64,000 nucleotides of DNA from positions 5,696,001 to 5,760,000 of the forward strand of contig CM000151.3 of NCBI GenBank assembly GCA_000004695.1, read 5' to 3'. The position numbers were made by a program, and so were the translations under genes. How positions within the stretch are numbered: position 1 is the stretch's first letter; each line of letters opens with the position of its first letter. Origin of the DNA: Dictyostelium discoideum. Lineage: Eukaryota. Under the pieces are notes generated by a model. That model saw only the letters and a list, made by a program, of their open reading frames with translations. It made no database searches and had not been told where the DNA came from. Below are positions 1,759 to 62,577 of the stretch, piece after piece.

Positions 1759-3799
<2,041 letters not shown>

Positions 3800-6026: not shown

Positions 6027-7468
6027 TTACAGCATTAAAAGTGGATTGTTATTATGTTGGTGATGATATTGTGGAATTGTTTGATTTTGAATATGGTATT
6101 GCATTTGATCGTTACCTCTATAAAATCCTTGAGTTTCTTGAATAAATGATTGAGGATATGGTTGGATTGAAATTTGTTGTTGTTGAATTTGTTGAACTTG
6201 TTGTTGTGGCATTGAATTATTAATTATTGGAGTTGACATTGGAATTGGAGATGATAAAGGAGAAGAAGTTGGTGTTACCATTGTCGATTGTTGTTGTTGA
6301 TTTGTATTTGATGATGATGTCGTTATTGAATTATTATTATTATTATTATTATTATTAACATTTGTTGAATTTAATTGTGACCATCTTGATTTGCATTCTA
6401 AAGCAGTTCTTGGAATTTTGGTAGTTTTAGCTCTTGCTAAATGTTTAGAAACTTGTTGAAAAGAGATTTTTTCATTATTTTGGGTCATTAATTTAATTTT
6501 TTTAGTCAAGATATCATCTTCCAATTGATTCCATTCAGTTTGTCTTGACATTATGGCTTTAAAGTATTGATAACGACATTGAATATCTGTACGAGTTTTA
6601 ATTTCAATTGCAACATTTTTCCAACTTTGACCATGTTTATCAACCAATTGAAACAAGAGCTCCTCTTCAGCTTCGTCCCAAGAGCCTTTTTTAATCTCTG
6701 GCGAGAGAACACGTTTCCAATGTTGAGCGCATTGAGCACCAGTTTTACCACCACCCAATTTGGTAGCTATCTTTTTCCATTGTTTATCACCATTCTCTGT
6801 TACTAATTTAATTAGATTTTGACTCTCTTCCTTTGTCCATTTATTTGGTGGTGATCTTATACCCCTACTAATACTCTCTCTCTTTCTTTCTCTCTTTTTC
6901 TTTATAATCTCTTGAGAGTTTGATGTTAATAAAATATCTTTAGTAAATTCTAATTCTTGTTCAGAGATACCATTATCAATTAAATATTTAACCATTTTAA
7001 TATCGCCATCAATTTTAACTAATGAATGAATTAATGTATTATGAATTGAATTATCTAAATTAAATTCTAAACATAAATTTTTTATCTTTTTAAAAAATAA
7101 AAAATAAAAAATTAGAATTTTAATTTTAATTTTAATTTTAATTTTTATTATTATTTTTAAAAATAAACTTACTTTTAATAACATTTGTTTTACAGTAATT
7201 TCTTCTTTTGAACATTCAGAAAATATTTTTATAATTGGTATAGTGATACCAGGTGTTTTACAAATTAAATTGACAAATGGTGTAATAGATACTCTTATTG
7301 CTTCTTGGTCGTCCTCATATTCCTCGAAATAACTATCGGCGTCGTCGTCACAATCATTTGAGGATTCTTTATCTGAGCAATGTTTATCGGATGAGTAATC
7401 ATCTTCAATACAACTATTATTACTATAACTACTTATACTACCACTACTATTTATATTATTATTTATTA

Positions 7469-7556
<88 letters not shown>

Positions 7557-8007
7557 GTTTGGATAATTATTTTCTTCCATCATTGCAGAATATGATCTTT
7601 TTATATTATTATTATTATTATTATTAATATTATTATTACTATTACTATTATTATTATTATTATTATTATTGTTATTATTATTATTATTATTTGAGAAACC
7701 AGTTGAAGAAGATAATGGAGTTGGTGATAATTCACCACTAACACAAGTTGGTGGTGAATGTTGATCTATAGTTAATTGTGGTGAATGAATTTGATGTGGT
7801 GGTGAATTTGTGATTGTATGATAATTATTATAGTTTGGTGGTGATGGACATAATGGTAATCCAGAGTAATTAAATGTTTGTTGTGGGAATAATGCTTGTG
7901 GAATCATTGGGATTTGATTCGATGTTCCATAGCATCCGAAATTTTTATTTATTAATTGTGGTGAAAAAATTGGTTGTGGTGTAGGAGGAATATTTTGATG
8001 GTGGTGA

Positions 8008-8162: not shown

Positions 8163-8244
8163 TTTATTATTATTATTATTATTATTTATTATTTATTATT
8201 TTATTAATTTTAAAATTTATTTATTTGGAAAATATTAAATTTAC

Positions 8245-8326
<82 letters not shown>

Positions 8327-9555
8327 TTTTAAAAAAATAAATTATTATTATTTATAATTTAAATTAGGAGATTTTGAAAAAATAAAAAAAAAATAAAAAA
8401 ATTATTAATTAATTTTATTTTATTTTTTATAATTATTTATAATTATTATTATTATTATTATTATTTATTTGAATTTTATTTATACAATGTATTGGTATTG
8501 GTTATGTACAAAAAAAAAAAGTGATTGATTTTTTTTTTTTTTAATTATTTTTTTTTTTTTTGATTTTTTTTTTTTTTTTTGATTGTTATTTTTTTTAATT
8601 AATTTTGTTAAATAAAAAGTGACCTAGTGTAAGTAAGTGATGAAAAAAAAAAAAAAAATTAAAAGAAAAAATTAAATTTTATTAATATGAGAAAAAAAAA
8701 ATTTATATAAATTTATATAAAAAAAAAAAAAAAACTCAAAAATAACCAATCAAAATTATGTTCATAAATCTCTGATGGATCTAAATTTTTTGCGGGCTTG
8801 CTTTGGTTACTAAATCAAAAAAAAAAATAAAAAATAAATGAAAAAATAAAAAAAAAAAAAAAAAAATATTCATAAAAAAAAAAAATTAAATTAAATTAAA
8901 AAAAATTTTGTGTCTACACAGAAAATAGAAAAAAAAACAATGGATAAAAAGGTCACATTAACATCTTTGGACAATTTTTTTTTTTTTTTTTTTTTTTTGA
9001 TTAATTTTTTTTTTTTTTTAAATGAAAAATTTAATGGGGAAAAATTGTAGTAAATTGATTTTTTGAAAATATTATTTTTTTTTTTTTTAAATTGTTTAAA
9101 TAGTGGTGTTGTAGATCATTGGAAATGTTTTGAAAACTGAAAAAAAAAAAATTTTATTTTTAACAATAATCTACTAAAAAAAAAAAATCACCTTTTATTA
9201 AACAATAAAATATGGTAATTTTATTTACAATCGAGATTTTAAGAATTTACAAATTTTTTTTTTAGGTTTTTTTTTATAATTTTTTTTTTAAATCATTTTT
9301 TTTTTTTTATTATTATTTTTTTTCTTTTTTTTTGAAATTTTATTTTTGGTGGAGATTAATATAAAAAAAAAAAAAAAAAATGAATGACTTCTATAGATTT
9401 ATTATTACCTCTATTTTTTTTTTAATATTATATATAAATATATATTTATTTGATATGAATGTATGTTTTTTTTTTTTTTTTATTTTTATTAAAAAATTTG
9501 GGGTTTCAAAAAATTTATATTGAAATTCTTTAAAATGAATTTACTGTTTTTGATT

Positions 9556-27474: not shown

Positions 27475-27532
<58 letters not shown>

Positions 27533-27915
27533 TTTTTTTTTTTTTTAAAAAAATATATATTTATTTTTTTTAAAAATATGCATTAAACTAAAATTTACTT
27601 TTCATCTAAAATTAAAAGAGTTGGTAAATTTTGAATTACAATAAGTCTGTAATTATTTTGTTTTGTTACAGGGTTTCCAGTTAAATTTAAATCTTCAATT
27701 ACTGGTAAATCAAATAAACCTTTGATATTACGAATTAGTTGAAATCTATTTGATGATAAATCTAATTTCTTTAAACATTTTAATCTTGAAAATGATGAAG
27801 TTGCATCAATGAATCCTAATGATGATAATTCAAGTTCTTCAATTGAATTGATATCAATTTTTTTACCAATTTTAAAACTGATATTATCTGGTGTTAATTT
27901 AGTTGCACTACTCAT
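26920..27915 (-). CDS. ANP32-family-like protein: N-terminal LRR/LRRcap followed by a long acidic tail; join(26920..27475,27599..27915)
   Basis: Real ATG at 27915. LRRs LELSSLGFIDATS..LKCLKKLDLSSNRFQ..LPVIEDLNLTGNPV plus a cap-like NYRLIVIQNLPTLLILD. Donor AA|GTAAAT (phase 2), 122-nt intron with a 45-nt T/A run, acceptor AG at 27476. Exon 2 encodes a D/E-rich tail (...SEEEEEQEQKEQKEE ... DDEDDDLF ... DDDDLFGD...). Confidence 0.65.
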
Positions 27916-28704: not shown

Positions 28705-29192
28705 ATGTCAGATATTATTGCAAGAGGTAACGTCGAAAACGGTGACAAACTTTTCAAAGCAAGATGTGCTCAATGTCACACCACTGCTAATGTAAGTTTA
28801 CTTTTTCTTTTTCTTTTTTTTTTTAATAATCAAATAAAATCTTAAAAAAATAAAAAAAATAAAAAAAATAAAAAAACAAAACCCACACATATTTATTAAA
28901 ATATGATCATGTGCGATATTTTTATTTATTTTTAATTTATCTTTTTTTTTTTAATTAAACAAAAGGAAATAAATAAATATTAATGTCCATAAAAAAAAAA
29001 AAAAAAAAAAAAAAAAATAGGGTGCACCAAACAAACAAGGTCCAAATCTTTACGGTTTATTCTTTCCTAAATCACGTTCCTTCCCTGGTTATGCCTACTC
29101 TGACCCCAACAAAAACACTGGAAAGTTTTGTTTTATTCATTACTTATAAATTTTCATTTTTTTCCTTCCATCAAAAAGGATAATTATCCACG

Positions 29193-29267
<75 letters not shown>

Positions 29268-29465
29268 AACCAAAATACAAACGATACTAATTAGGACGAA
29301 AATAATTTTAAAATAATAGGTATCATGTGGGGTGAACAAACTCTCTTTGATTACTTAGAAAATCCAAAGAAATACATTCCAAAGACTAAAATGGCCTTTG
29401 CTGGTTTCAAATCTGAACAAGATAGAGCTGATGTTGTCGCTTACCTTGAACAATCAACTAAATAA
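28705..29465 (+). CDS. cytC: Cytochrome c (111 aa); join(28705..28791,29021..29119,29320..29465)
   Basis: Heme-binding CAQCHT, conserved GPNLYGLF..., [36 protein letters not shown] (Met ligand). Intron 1 is 229 nt (GTAAGT..AG). Intron 2 (29120..29319) reads GAAAGT...AG, i.e. non-canonical (see findings). Confidence 0.85.
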
Positions 29466-29840
29466 ACACACAATATAAATAAACTACTCAACTAAATAAA
29501 CACAATATAAATAACTTGATTTCTTTTTTAACAATATAAATAACATGGTTTCTTTTTTTCTTATTTATTTATATTATTAATAAAATAATTATATATTCAC
29601 CCGTATTTTTCACACATAAAAAAAGAAAGTGTGACAGGTTGGAATGTTTGTCAGTTTCAAAAAATAAAAATTTTGTGGATGAAATTTAATATTAACAATA
29701 TAAATAAACTTAATTTTCTTTTTCTCATAATTATTTATTTATATTATTAATAAAATAATTATATTTCCACCCTGTATTTTTTTAAAATAAATAAAAAAAA
29801 AGAAAGTGTAAAAAGTTGGAAAGTTTGTGAGTTTCAAAAA
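29448..29840. repeat. Nested tandem repeats in the cytC 3' flank: three copies of a roughly 30-bp unit and two copies of a roughly 140-bp unit
   Basis: The 30-bp unit aaataaacacaatataaataa+ occurs three times in tandem from about 29458 to 29560; the first copy contains the cytC stop codon. The large units at 29530..29667 and 29696..29840 are about 85% identical (ttatttatttatattattaataaaataattatat...agaaagtgt.a.a.gttgga.(a)tgtttgt.agtttcaaaaaat). Confidence 0.8.
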
Positions 29841-29921
29841 ATTAATGGGAGGGCATAGAAAATAAAAAAATAAAAAAAAAAAAAAAAAAAAGAGGGCAAC
29901 AAACCCACCAGCGCCACATAA

Positions 29922-43373: not shown

Positions 43374-48830
<5,457 letters not shown>

Positions 48831-49742: not shown

Positions 49743-56816
<7,074 letters not shown>

Positions 56817-56861
56817 TTTTGTCTCTGAAAAATCGATGGTTTGGTCGAATACTGTATCATT

Positions 56862-56977
<116 letters not shown>

Positions 56978-59949: not shown

Positions 59950-60034
<85 letters not shown>

Positions 60035-62577
60035 TTCATTAGAAGTTGAAGTTGGTAAGGTTTGTGGTGGTTGTATAATTTCAATAATATCTTCAGTTAC
60101 ATCCAAAATGAAATCTGCAGGATTTTTGAATGGATCACAAATTAAACCTCTTTCTGCAAAATAATTTAAAACAATTTTTGAATTTGTACCAGTTGGACCA
60201 AAGTAAACAGTTTCACCACCTCTCTTTAAGAGTAAAAGATGATCAAACTTTTTAAAGATTGTAGTTGATGGTTGATGAATTGTACAAATAACTGAACGAC
60301 CACTTGATGCAATCTTTTTAATTAAATTCATTACCTTCAAGGCAGCAGATGAATCCAAACCAGATGTTGGTTCATCAAGGAAGAGTAATTGTGGGTCCGA
60401 TGCTAATTCAATACCCATATTAACACGTTTACGTTGTGATAGTGATAAACCACTTTCAACATCACCAATTAATGAATGTTGAATCTTTAATAAATTTAAA
60501 GTCTCCAAAATATTATCAACAAATTCTTCCTTTTCTTGAATTGGTACTGAATTTGGTAATCTATTTTTAGCAGAGAATAAAATCACTTCTCTAACCGTTG
60601 ACACTGGTGTTAAAATATCCATTTGTTCAACATATGCGGAAGTACGAGTGAAATATTTAGTTCTTTCTTGACCATTGATTAAAATTTGACCTTTAGTATG
60701 ACCACCTGTTTTTCTATTAGCTAAAACATCTAATAATGTTGATTTACCAGCACCTGATGGACCCATTAATGCAACCAACATACCTGGTTTAACATAACCA
60801 TTAATACCATTCAATAGTCTTAAACGTTGATTTTTACCATCTTTCTTTACATCAACTTCATAAACTAAATCTTTCCATTGCATATAACAACCAATTGGAA
60901 TATCTTTCCTTAAATTTGCTTTACCACTTGATTTAACATCAACATCAACTGATTCCATTTCTTCACCAGAATCTGAATCATCATTTTGTTTTTTATTATG
61001 TTTATTATTAAAATAATTCATACTATTATTTGTTGTTGTACTATCGGTTGAATTTCTATTCATTTTTATTAGCGTTGTAGTTTTATTTGGTTTTGATTTT
61101 TTAATACCAACTGGATCTTTACGATAAACTCTAAATACTAAAAATTTCATACAAACCAAGGTAATTAACCAAAATAATAGAGTGAAAGCTGAAATAATTG
61201 CTAAATCAACCCATCTATAATAGAATTCAGTATGAAAACCAATTGAATCTAAAATTTGTTCACCTTTTGTAATTGGACAAACTTGATTACCTTCAAACCC
61301 TACCGGATAGGAGGTATTAAAAGTTGGTAAAAATGATGGTGGCATTAATTCATCGGGTGAGCAATGATAATCTAAACCACTATGTTCATTTAATAGTAAA
61401 CCTTCGAAACCATAATGAATTGGTGAAATCCAATAGAGCCAAATCCACCAACCTGGTATTTCATTGGAATGTTTCATATAGCCACACATTAGAATGAATG
61501 GTGATACAACAGCTGGTGAAATTGCAGATGCAGCATATTTGGTTTTAGTGAATGAACAAACACTTCTAATAATTGATAATGACATAACATCGCAAACTAA
61601 ACATGTTAAGAAAAAGTAAATAAATCTATCCCATGTCTTATTTAAACCTGTCATCCAATAAACGAAATTTGAAAATATCAATACCTCAACGATTGACATT
61701 GGTAAATCAGTGACAATCATACTTAGAAAGTAGGTGATTGTATTATAATATTTCCATGCACGTTCACTATAAAATACTTGACGTTGATCGAAAAATACAG
61801 ATATCGAACCAAATCCACCAAATACAAATGTTAACAATGAAAAGAATAATAAGCCTGACCTATTTGAACCATCGGCTTGGGTTGTATCCAATTTCCAATA
61901 CAATGTACCCAAAATAAACCCAATTATAACATTCTTTAATAGTCTAAGACGTATTGATGCTTTGTTACCAAGAAATAGTTTAAATCCTCTTTTAACATTC
62001 AATGATAATTGTCTACCAAATCCAGTTGAATATGGCTTTAATGTTGTTGAATAATCTATAAATTTACTTCTTTCTTCTTCATCTGGTATATGACTATCAA
62101 TATATTCTAAAATATGTTTATAAATTATTGATTTTCTATATGCCATTGCAAATTCATCTGATCCTTTTAAAGGTGGTATAATTTTATTATTATTATTCAT
62201 CATCATCATCGTTGATGAGGCTTTGTTTTTAAAATTATAATTATAATTACTACCACCACTACTACTACCACTATCACCACTACCACCATCACTACTACCA
62301 TCATCTATACCACAATATAATTCTGGTTCATCAACAATCTCTTGAAAAAATTCTGCTGGATTATGATGTTTTGGAAATTTAAATCCTAACCCTTCAAAAT
62401 ATCCAATTGCTTGATTCATTGGTCCAAAATATGACATTTGACCTTGATTCATAATCATTAAATAATCAAATAATTTTGTAATTTCTAATCCAGGTTGTAA
62501 TAATGATATTAAACATGACATTTTCTCTTGTTGAACTTTATTTTTAATTTTTGTTAACATCTTTTTAATAATTAATA

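What the first reader, a model, noticed from the sequence alone, without database searches (positions are those of the whole stretch)
29116..29322. Cytochrome c intron 2 has a GA..AG (GAAAGT) donor in place of GTAAGT
Conservation forces the exon 2/3 junction to be ...DPNKNT G|[30 protein letters not shown], which aligns to the universal cytochrome c ...DANKNKGITWGE. With that junction the intron is 29120..29319 and begins gaaagt. The canonical gtaagt would need T at 29121, where the sequence has A. No alternative GT donor or AG acceptor preserves the conserved exon-2 residues [10 protein letters not shown]. This essential single-copy respiratory gene therefore either uses a rare non-canonical donor or the window carries a SNP or sequencing error at the +2 donor position.
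Basis: partly seen in the sequence, partly recalled or inferred. Interest (0 to 1): 0.6.

Follow-up and report, generated by a model that had tools for sequence, protein, structure and literature searches.

The report
Reference base-call errors fake a GA splice donor
The odd GA start of the second intron in the Dictyostelium cytochrome c gene is almost certainly one of eleven clustered sequencing errors next to a 69-base run of A, not an unusual splice site; the real gene very probably has an ordinary GTAAGT donor.

Summary
The window does read G|GAAAGT where protein conservation places the exon 2/3 junction.

This A is one of 11 substitutions packed into 129 bp (29063-29191), directly 5' of an A69 run. 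They separate the window from a nearly identical D. discoideum assembly. The remaining ~20.7 kb holds about 15 differences (Poisson P ~1e-19).

- Ten of the 11 replace a G. Every CpG guanine in the stretch is hit.
- All 8 exonic changes are non-synonymous. They replace near-invariant cytochrome c residues (G37, R38, G41, A51 in horse numbering).
- All 11 orthologous loci examined have G|GTAAGT, G|GTATGT or G|GTAGGT at this position.

A GT at 29130 keeps the frame. The published AX4 model (113 aa, with a 'KFC' insertion found in no other homologue) uses it, apparently to compensate for the error.

Best reading: base-call errors in the AX4 chromosome 2 reference (confidence ~0.88). I found no independent AX4 reads or cDNA, so this rests on comparative evidence. 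Low interest, apart from a curation fix for the reference cytochrome c protein.

The parts
28705..28791 (+). cytC exon 1 (29 codons, MSDII...CAQCHTTAN, holds the CXXCH haem-binding motif)
   Evidence: Identical in L001.
28792..29020 (+). Intron 1, canonical GTAAGT...TAG, 229 nt
   Evidence: The GTAAGT donor is present in all 9 close orthologous loci.
29021..29120 (+). cytC exon 2. It ends with the first base of the split Gly codon (G|GT).
29063..29191 (+). Cluster of 11 substitutions relative to the near-identical D. discoideum assembly L001/L010, at 29063, 29064, 29067, 29075, 29081, 29084, 29105, 29117, 29122, 29166 and 29191. Ten are G->T/C/A and one is T->A. Probable base-call errors.
29121..29126 (+). 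Apparent non-canonical donor GAAAGT. L001 has GTAAGT here. The A at 29122 is the flagged base.
29130..29135 (+). In-frame GT (GTTTTA), a poor match to the donor consensus. The published 113-aa AX4 model uses it and so gains 'KFC' (inserted between Gly and Ile).
29121..29319 (+). Intron 2 at the position conservation requires (199 nt in the window, 164 nt in L001), phase 1, acceptor AATAATAG
29193..29261 (+). A69 homopolymer inside intron 2 (A34 in L001; between A4 and A33 in the other eight close loci). The error cluster lies immediately 5' of it.
29320..29465 (+). cytC exon 3 (GT completes the Gly codon; IMWGEQ...EQSTK; stop TAA 29463-29465)
   Evidence: Identical in L001.

Best explanation
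The window is the D. discoideum AX4 reference sequence of the cytochrome c gene (cytC). A 129-bp stretch of it (29063-29191), lying directly 5' of an A69 homopolymer in intron 2, carries a cluster of base-call errors. One of them turns the true donor G|GTAAGT into G|GAAAGT. Eight others corrupt seven codons of exon 2.

The real gene most probably has an ordinary U2-type GT-AG intron at 29121-29319. It would then encode the 110-aa protein ...[28 protein letters not shown]..., identical to P0002. The published 113-aa AX4 model picked a weak in-frame GT nine bases downstream (29130) to obtain a legal intron from the faulty sequence.

Shown here: the clustering, the G and CpG specificity, the absence of these changes from all relatives, and the hits on invariant residues.

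Inferred: these are errors in the reference rather than real AX4 mutations. The likely cause is also inferred. The long homopolymer would leave this stretch with poor or single-strand Sanger coverage, in which weak G peaks after C were miscalled.
For: 1. The window translated with the 29130 donor equals 'cytochrome c [D. discoideum AX4]' P0001 exactly, including seven residues seen in no other hit.
2. Over 20.8 kb (window 18665-39495) the window and assembly GCA_054883475.1 differ by 26 substitutions. Eleven lie in 129 bp. Exon 1, intron 1 (apart from a 4-base A-run length difference), exon 3 and 3.2 kb downstream have none. Poisson P is ~1e-19.
3. Ten of the 11 changes hit a G, although G makes up 16% of the stretch (binomial P ~1e-7). 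All 7 CpG guanines, the next G of a CGG and 2 CAGG guanines are changed. The 11 Gs that remain include no CpG guanine (ten follow T, A or G; 29076 follows the changed 29075). The spectrum is G->C 5, G->T 4, G->A 1.
4. All 8 exonic changes are non-synonymous. They hit columns that read G in 116/119, R in 119/119, G in 119/119 and A in 116/119 homologues.
5. All 11 orthologous loci have GT at this donor, in the same position and phase. They are D. discoideum x3, cf. discoideum, citrinum x3, dimigraforme, firmibasis, purpureum and T. lacteum.
6. The 3-aa insertion of the AX4 model is unique. 119 of 121 sequences have exactly 12 residues from Y55 to W66.
7. There is precedent. PMC5282741 documents errors in the AX4 genome sequence that were compensated by artificial gene models. 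PMC3466296 found 1916 differences from the reference shared among AX4-derived lines.
Against: - No independent AX4 read, cDNA or EST could be obtained. Look-ups and a scan returned nothing.
- The strain behind L001 is unknown, so the comparison is to a very close relative, not proven to be AX4 itself.
- The AX3/AX4 lineage went through chemical mutagenesis (my own knowledge), so a real strain-specific lesion cannot be formally excluded.
- The proposed technical cause (weak G after C, single-strand coverage beside the homopolymer) is inference. No trace data were seen.
Confidence: 0.88

Rival explanations
1. The sequence is correct for AX4. The laboratory strain carries a real cluster of 11 mutations in cytC, including T->A at donor +2, and the gene is still expressed through a GA-AG splice (29121-29319) by the major spliceosome.
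For: GA-AG introns exist and can be spliced efficiently elsewhere (human FGFR genes, Eurytemora affinis, Oikopleura dioica; PMC7072748). The rest of the donor (+3 to +6, AAGT) and the acceptor are good. The conservation-forced junction is exactly this one.
Against: It would require a single-copy respiratory protein to tolerate G37F, R38P, G41R and A51P together. There is no second copy in the window. The spectrum is G-only and CpG-specific, with mostly G->C and G->T changes. That is unlike nitrosoguanidine damage (G->A transitions, my knowledge) or deamination. The density is ~120-fold above background, with zero synonymous changes. GA is absent from all 11 relatives.
Confidence: 0.04
2. The sequence is correct and the published AX4 model is correct. 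The intron is the canonical GT-AG 29130-29319, and the protein really is 113 aa with a KFC insertion.
For: It is the only canonical, in-frame, stop-free option that keeps the exon-2 residues. It is the deposited annotation.
Against: GTTTTA departs from the GTAAGT/GTATGT seen at 19 of the 20 donors of the two introns in the window and nine close loci, the exception being the flagged GAAAGT. The insertion falls in a loop of fixed length in 119 of 121 homologues. In L001 the same downstream GTTTTA is present, yet the perfect GTAAGT lies 9 nt upstream and the annotated product is 110 aa. All objections to the aberrant exon-2 residues also apply.
Confidence: 0.04
3. Only the donor A is a real AX4 polymorphism, and the other ten changes are errors (or the reverse).
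For: It is the only change in the cluster that does not hit a G.
Against: It lies in the middle of a stretch where ~8.5% of bases differ, against a background of ~0.07%. On these rates an error is about a hundred times more likely than an independent SNP at that base. A null mutation at donor +2 in an essential gene would be selected against.
Confidence: 0.03

Closest known systems
Documented AX4 reference-genome errors with compensating artificial gene models (PMC5282741)
   Same: A faulty genomic sequence forced annotators to build an implausible model. In that paper the models had 1-5 bp 'introns'. Here a weak downstream GT donor adds three residues. Both concern the same organism and reference assembly.
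   Different: Those cases were single-base indels shown by RNA-seq. This one is a cluster of 11 substitutions beside a long homopolymer, shown only by comparison with other assemblies.
Ordinary U2-type GT-AG intron of Dictyostelium (donor GTAAGT/GTATGT)
   Same: Position, phase, acceptor and donor positions +1 and +3 to +6 all fit. All orthologues have GT.
   Different: The window reads A instead of T at +2.
Genuine GA-AG introns (human FGFR1-3; Eurytemora affinis, Oikopleura dioica; PMC7072748)
   Same: The GA...AG dinucleotides, with an otherwise U2-like donor.
   Different: The FGFR type depends on a canonical GT six bases upstream, which is absent here (exon end AACACTG). The E. affinis/O. 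dioica type has a conserved AG before the GA, whereas here it is TG. Those introns are supported by transcripts. Here there is no conservation of GA in any relative and no transcript evidence.

Membership tests
U2-type GT-AG spliceosomal intron | GT at intron positions +1/+2 | tested here: not met
   The window reads GA at 29121-29122. The feature is met in all 11 orthologous loci, and in L001, which is otherwise identical around the site.
U2-type GT-AG spliceosomal intron | AG acceptor, donor +3 to +6 matching the local consensus (AAGT), conserved position and phase | tested here: met
   The intron reads GAAAGT...AATAATAG. It occupies the same phase-1 Gly codon in 11 relatives.
Genuine GA-AG non-canonical intron | Transcript (cDNA or RNA-seq) evidence for the junction on a verified genomic GA | not testable with these tools
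   No D. discoideum transcript or read data could be reached.
Genuine GA-AG non-canonical intron | GA retained in orthologues or other strains | tested here: not met
   None of the 11 orthologous loci has GA. All have GT.
Genuine GA-AG non-canonical intron | Known helper context: a canonical GT 6 nt upstream (FGFR type) or AG immediately before the GA (E. affinis/O. dioica type; PMC7072748) | tested here: not met
   The exon end is ...AACACTG|GAAAGT, with no GT at -6 and TG rather than AG upstream.
U12-type (minor) intron | Donor /[AG]TATCCTT | tested here: not met
   The donor is GAAAGTTT.
Mitochondrial cytochrome c (Pfam PF00034) | CXXCH haem attachment motif and distal Met ligand region | tested here: met
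   CAQCH lies in exon 1 and KTKMAF in exon 3. Homologues carry PF00034.
Mitochondrial cytochrome c (Pfam PF00034) | Near-invariant G37-R38 and G41, plus A51 (horse numbering) | tested here: not met
   The window encodes F, P, R and P at these columns (G 116/119, R 119/119, G 119/119, A 116/119). L001 encodes the consensus residues.
Reference-assembly base-call error | Differences sharply localised, biased in strand or context, absent from near-identical genomes, and incompatible with purifying selection | tested here: met
   Eleven of 26 substitutions fall in 129 bp of 20.8 kb. Ten of the 11 hit a G and every CpG G is hit. There are 8 non-synonymous and 0 synonymous changes.
Reference-assembly base-call error | Independent resequencing of the same strain disagrees with the reference | not testable with these tools
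   No AX4 reads were available. The literature searches found nothing on this locus.

The most novel reading that the evidence does not exclude
AX4 really carries G|GAAAGT in its only cytochrome c gene, and the Dictyostelium major spliceosome removes a GA-AG intron efficiently enough to sustain respiration. This would come with a cytochrome c that tolerates replacement of G37, R38, G41 and A51.
Probability: 0.04. Interest if true: 0.55.

Novelty: not a real feature. Interest (0 to 1): 0.12.

Why it matters
As biology it does not matter much: the splice site is most probably ordinary. It has practical value for curation. The reference cytochrome c protein of a major model organism (113 aa, P0001) very probably carries seven wrong residues and a spurious three-residue insertion. 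These errors would mislead alignments, structural modelling, peptide identification in proteomics and primer or guide design. The case also shows a general trap. A non-canonical splice site inferred from one assembly should first be checked against another genome of the same species, especially beside long homopolymers.

Tried and rejected
- **AX4 record.** Look-up of the AX4 protein P0001 to fetch the AX4 record itself found nothing on record.
- **Logan or other D. discoideum contigs.** Look-up of the exon-3 ORF (46 aa) found nothing. P0002 is held only by one NCBI assembly, so no transcript-derived copy exists in the collection.
- **Metagenome scan.** A degenerate exon-2 pattern that accepts both versions gave 0 matches.
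- **Literature.** The gene identifier as I recalled it (DDB_G0275537, unverified) occurs in no paper. Nothing was found in the supplements of the transcriptome re-annotation paper. Nothing useful came up for Dictyostelium cytC, for GA-AG in Dictyostelium, or for the source of the new Dictyostelium assemblies.
- **Other intron boundaries.** I enumerated all GT-AG, GC-AG, AT-AC and GA-AG combinations that keep the frame. Apart from 29121 and 29130, every option deletes or replaces conserved residues.
- **Gene conversion from a paralogue.** There is no second cytochrome c copy and no second copy of the aberrant stretch in the window.
- **Real mutational processes.** The spectrum and CpG-G specificity do not fit deamination or alkylation, which give transitions (plus my own knowledge).
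- **Neighbour-base substitution.** Seven of the 11 miscalled bases equal an adjacent base. I could not show this exceeds chance in such low-complexity sequence, so I do not rely on it.

Full report
**What is in the window**

The + strand between 28705 and 29465 holds a three-exon cytochrome c gene:
- exon 1: 28705-28791
- intron 1: 28792-29020 (GTAAGT...TAG)
- exon 2: starts at 29021
- exon 3: 29320-29465

Joining 29120 to 29320 gives a 110-aa protein. Its best database matches are Dictyostelium cytochromes c carrying Pfam PF00034. With this junction intron 2 runs 29121-29319 and begins GAAAGT. The finding's coordinates are one base too low: the non-canonical A is at 29122.

**Is the junction forced?**

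Largely, yes. In an alignment of the 120 best hits plus the window protein, 119 of 121 sequences have exactly 12 residues from Tyr55 to Trp66.

I enumerated all frame-preserving GT-AG, GC-AG, AT-AC and GA-AG combinations. One canonical option keeps exon 2 intact: GT at 29130 (GTTTTATT) with the same acceptor. It gives ...[14 protein letters not shown]... and 113 aa. That product is identical, residue for residue, to the protein named 'cytochrome c [Dictyostelium discoideum AX4]' (P0001).

So the window is, or is identical in the coding sequence to, the AX4 reference. The published model avoids the GA by using a weak downstream GT, at the cost of a three-residue insertion seen in no other homologue.

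**Comparison with other genomes**

I fetched the orthologous locus from eleven places:
- three D. discoideum assemblies
- D. cf. discoideum
- three D. citrinum assemblies
- D. dimigraforme
- D. firmibasis
- D. purpureum
- Tieghemostelium lacteum

. Every one has the intron in the same phase-1 Gly codon. The donor is G|GTAAGT, G|GTATGT or G|GTAGGT, and none has GA.

The most informative locus is L001/L010 (GCA_054883475.1), which is almost identical to the window. Exon 1, intron 1 (apart from a 4-base A-run length difference), exon 3, the 3' flank and 3.2 kb downstream show no substitution at all. Over 20.8 kb (window 18665-39495) there are 26 substitutions. Eleven of them lie in the 129 bp from 29063 to 29191. 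At the background rate 0.09 would be expected there (Poisson P ~1e-19).

**Nature of the cluster**

- Ten of the eleven differences are sites where the relative has G and the window has T, C or A (5 G->C, 4 G->T, 1 G->A). The eleventh is the donor T->A. G makes up only 16% of the stretch, so ten of eleven hits on G has P ~1e-7.
- The context is sharper still. Every CpG guanine in the stretch is changed (seven), as are the second G of a CGG and the first G of two CAGG. None of the eleven unchanged guanines is a CpG guanine; ten follow T, A or G and 29076 follows the changed 29075.
- All eight exonic changes are non-synonymous and none is synonymous. They convert [19 protein letters not shown] into [19 protein letters not shown].
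- The affected columns read G in 116/119, R in 119/119, G in 119/119 and A in 116/119 homologues. In horse numbering these are G37, R38, G41 and A51. From established knowledge, variants at G41 and A51 of human cytochrome c cause disease.
- The cluster ends two bases before an A69 homopolymer (29193-29261). This run is A34 in L001 and between A4 and A33 in the other eight close loci.

**Interpretation**

The pattern has five parts: extreme localisation, one-strand and dinucleotide specificity, an unnatural spectrum, exclusive damage to invariant residues of a single-copy respiratory gene, and absence from every relative. This is what base-calling errors look like, not mutations.

I infer, but cannot show, the technical cause. 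The long homopolymer would prevent clean reads from the other strand. The stretch would then be covered only by the tails of forward Sanger reads, in which weak G peaks after C were miscalled.

The donor A at 29122 is one more error of the same cluster. The true intron is then an ordinary GTAAGT...TAG intron, and the true protein is the 110-aa P0002 sequence.

Precedent exists. [quoted passage not shown] Resequencing of AX4-derived lines found 1916 shared differences from the reference (PMC3466296). That study allowed only one mismatch per 31-bp read, so it could not have mapped reads across this cluster.

**Rivals**

1. A real AX4 mutation cluster with genuine GA-AG splicing. GA-AG introns are real elsewhere (PMC7072748). 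But the helper contexts described there are absent, no relative keeps GA, and the protein would have to tolerate four substitutions at near-invariant positions.
2. The published GT(29130) model is right. The donor GTTTTA departs from the GTAAGT/GTATGT seen at 19 of the 20 donors of these two introns in the window and nine close loci (the exception is the flagged GAAAGT). The insertion is also unique.
3. Only the donor change is real. This is about a hundred-fold less likely than an error, given the local difference rate.

No second gene copy or donor sequence for gene conversion exists in the window.

**Limits**

I could not obtain any AX4 read, EST or cDNA. I found no paper dealing with this locus. 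The strain behind L001 is unknown. The conclusion therefore rests on comparative and statistical evidence. I put it at about 0.88.

**Verdict**

This is not a real feature. It is ordinary biology hidden behind a faulty stretch of the reference. The useful by-product is that the reference cytochrome c protein of D. discoideum probably needs correcting, at seven residues plus a three-residue insertion.

Noticed in passing
window 29193-29261: Intron 2 holds an uninterrupted run of 69 A. The near-identical assembly L001 has 34, and the other eight close loci have between 4 and 33. The run length in the reference may itself be unreliable.
   Followed up: partly
window 29021-29135 (protein P0001): The deposited AX4 cytochrome c (113 aa) carries seven residues and a KFC insertion found in no other homologue. 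The public protein entry is probably wrong.
   Followed up: yes
L008 1501-2207 (D. dimigraforme, protein P0006): The annotated product is 125 aa, with a 15-residue insertion (DVPMDINIFKYLTKL) at the same junction. Yet the locus has a canonical G|GTATGT donor at the conserved position. This is probably a mis-chosen acceptor in the automatic annotation.
   Followed up: partly
protein P0016, not in the window: A 140-aa 'c-type cytochrome [Myxococcus xanthus]' on a 9.43-Mb contig is 68% identical to the Dictyostelium mitochondrial cytochrome c over 99% of the query. That is unusually close for a bacterial protein, so it may be horizontal transfer or contamination.
   Followed up: no
window 29490-29845: Downstream of the cytC stop codon there is a diverged direct duplication of roughly 150-170 bp (29533-29668 versus 29703-29845, 72-88% identical). 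Shorter AACAATATAAATAA-containing repeats lie at 29490, 29519 and 29683. Their function is unknown.
   Followed up: partly
window 27503-27548: This T/A homopolymer block differs from L001 by a 17-base T insertion and several ambiguous substitutions. It is either another unreliable low-complexity stretch or real slippage variation.
   Followed up: no
window 3100-3220, 7458-7569, 8230-8328, 43590-43701, 44421-44508, 51654-51738, 52622-52718, 53548-53871, 54882-55043, 55346-55577, 56857-56975, 59950-60036: The window holds many long trinucleotide arrays, for example (ATT)n at 55350-55460. This is typical of Dictyostelium repeat-rich sequence. I did not check whether they are coding.
   Followed up: no
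L011 (D. purpureum) about 1050-1150: The D. purpureum orthologue has an additional third intron after ...KTKM that is absent from the D. discoideum-group genes.
   Followed up: no
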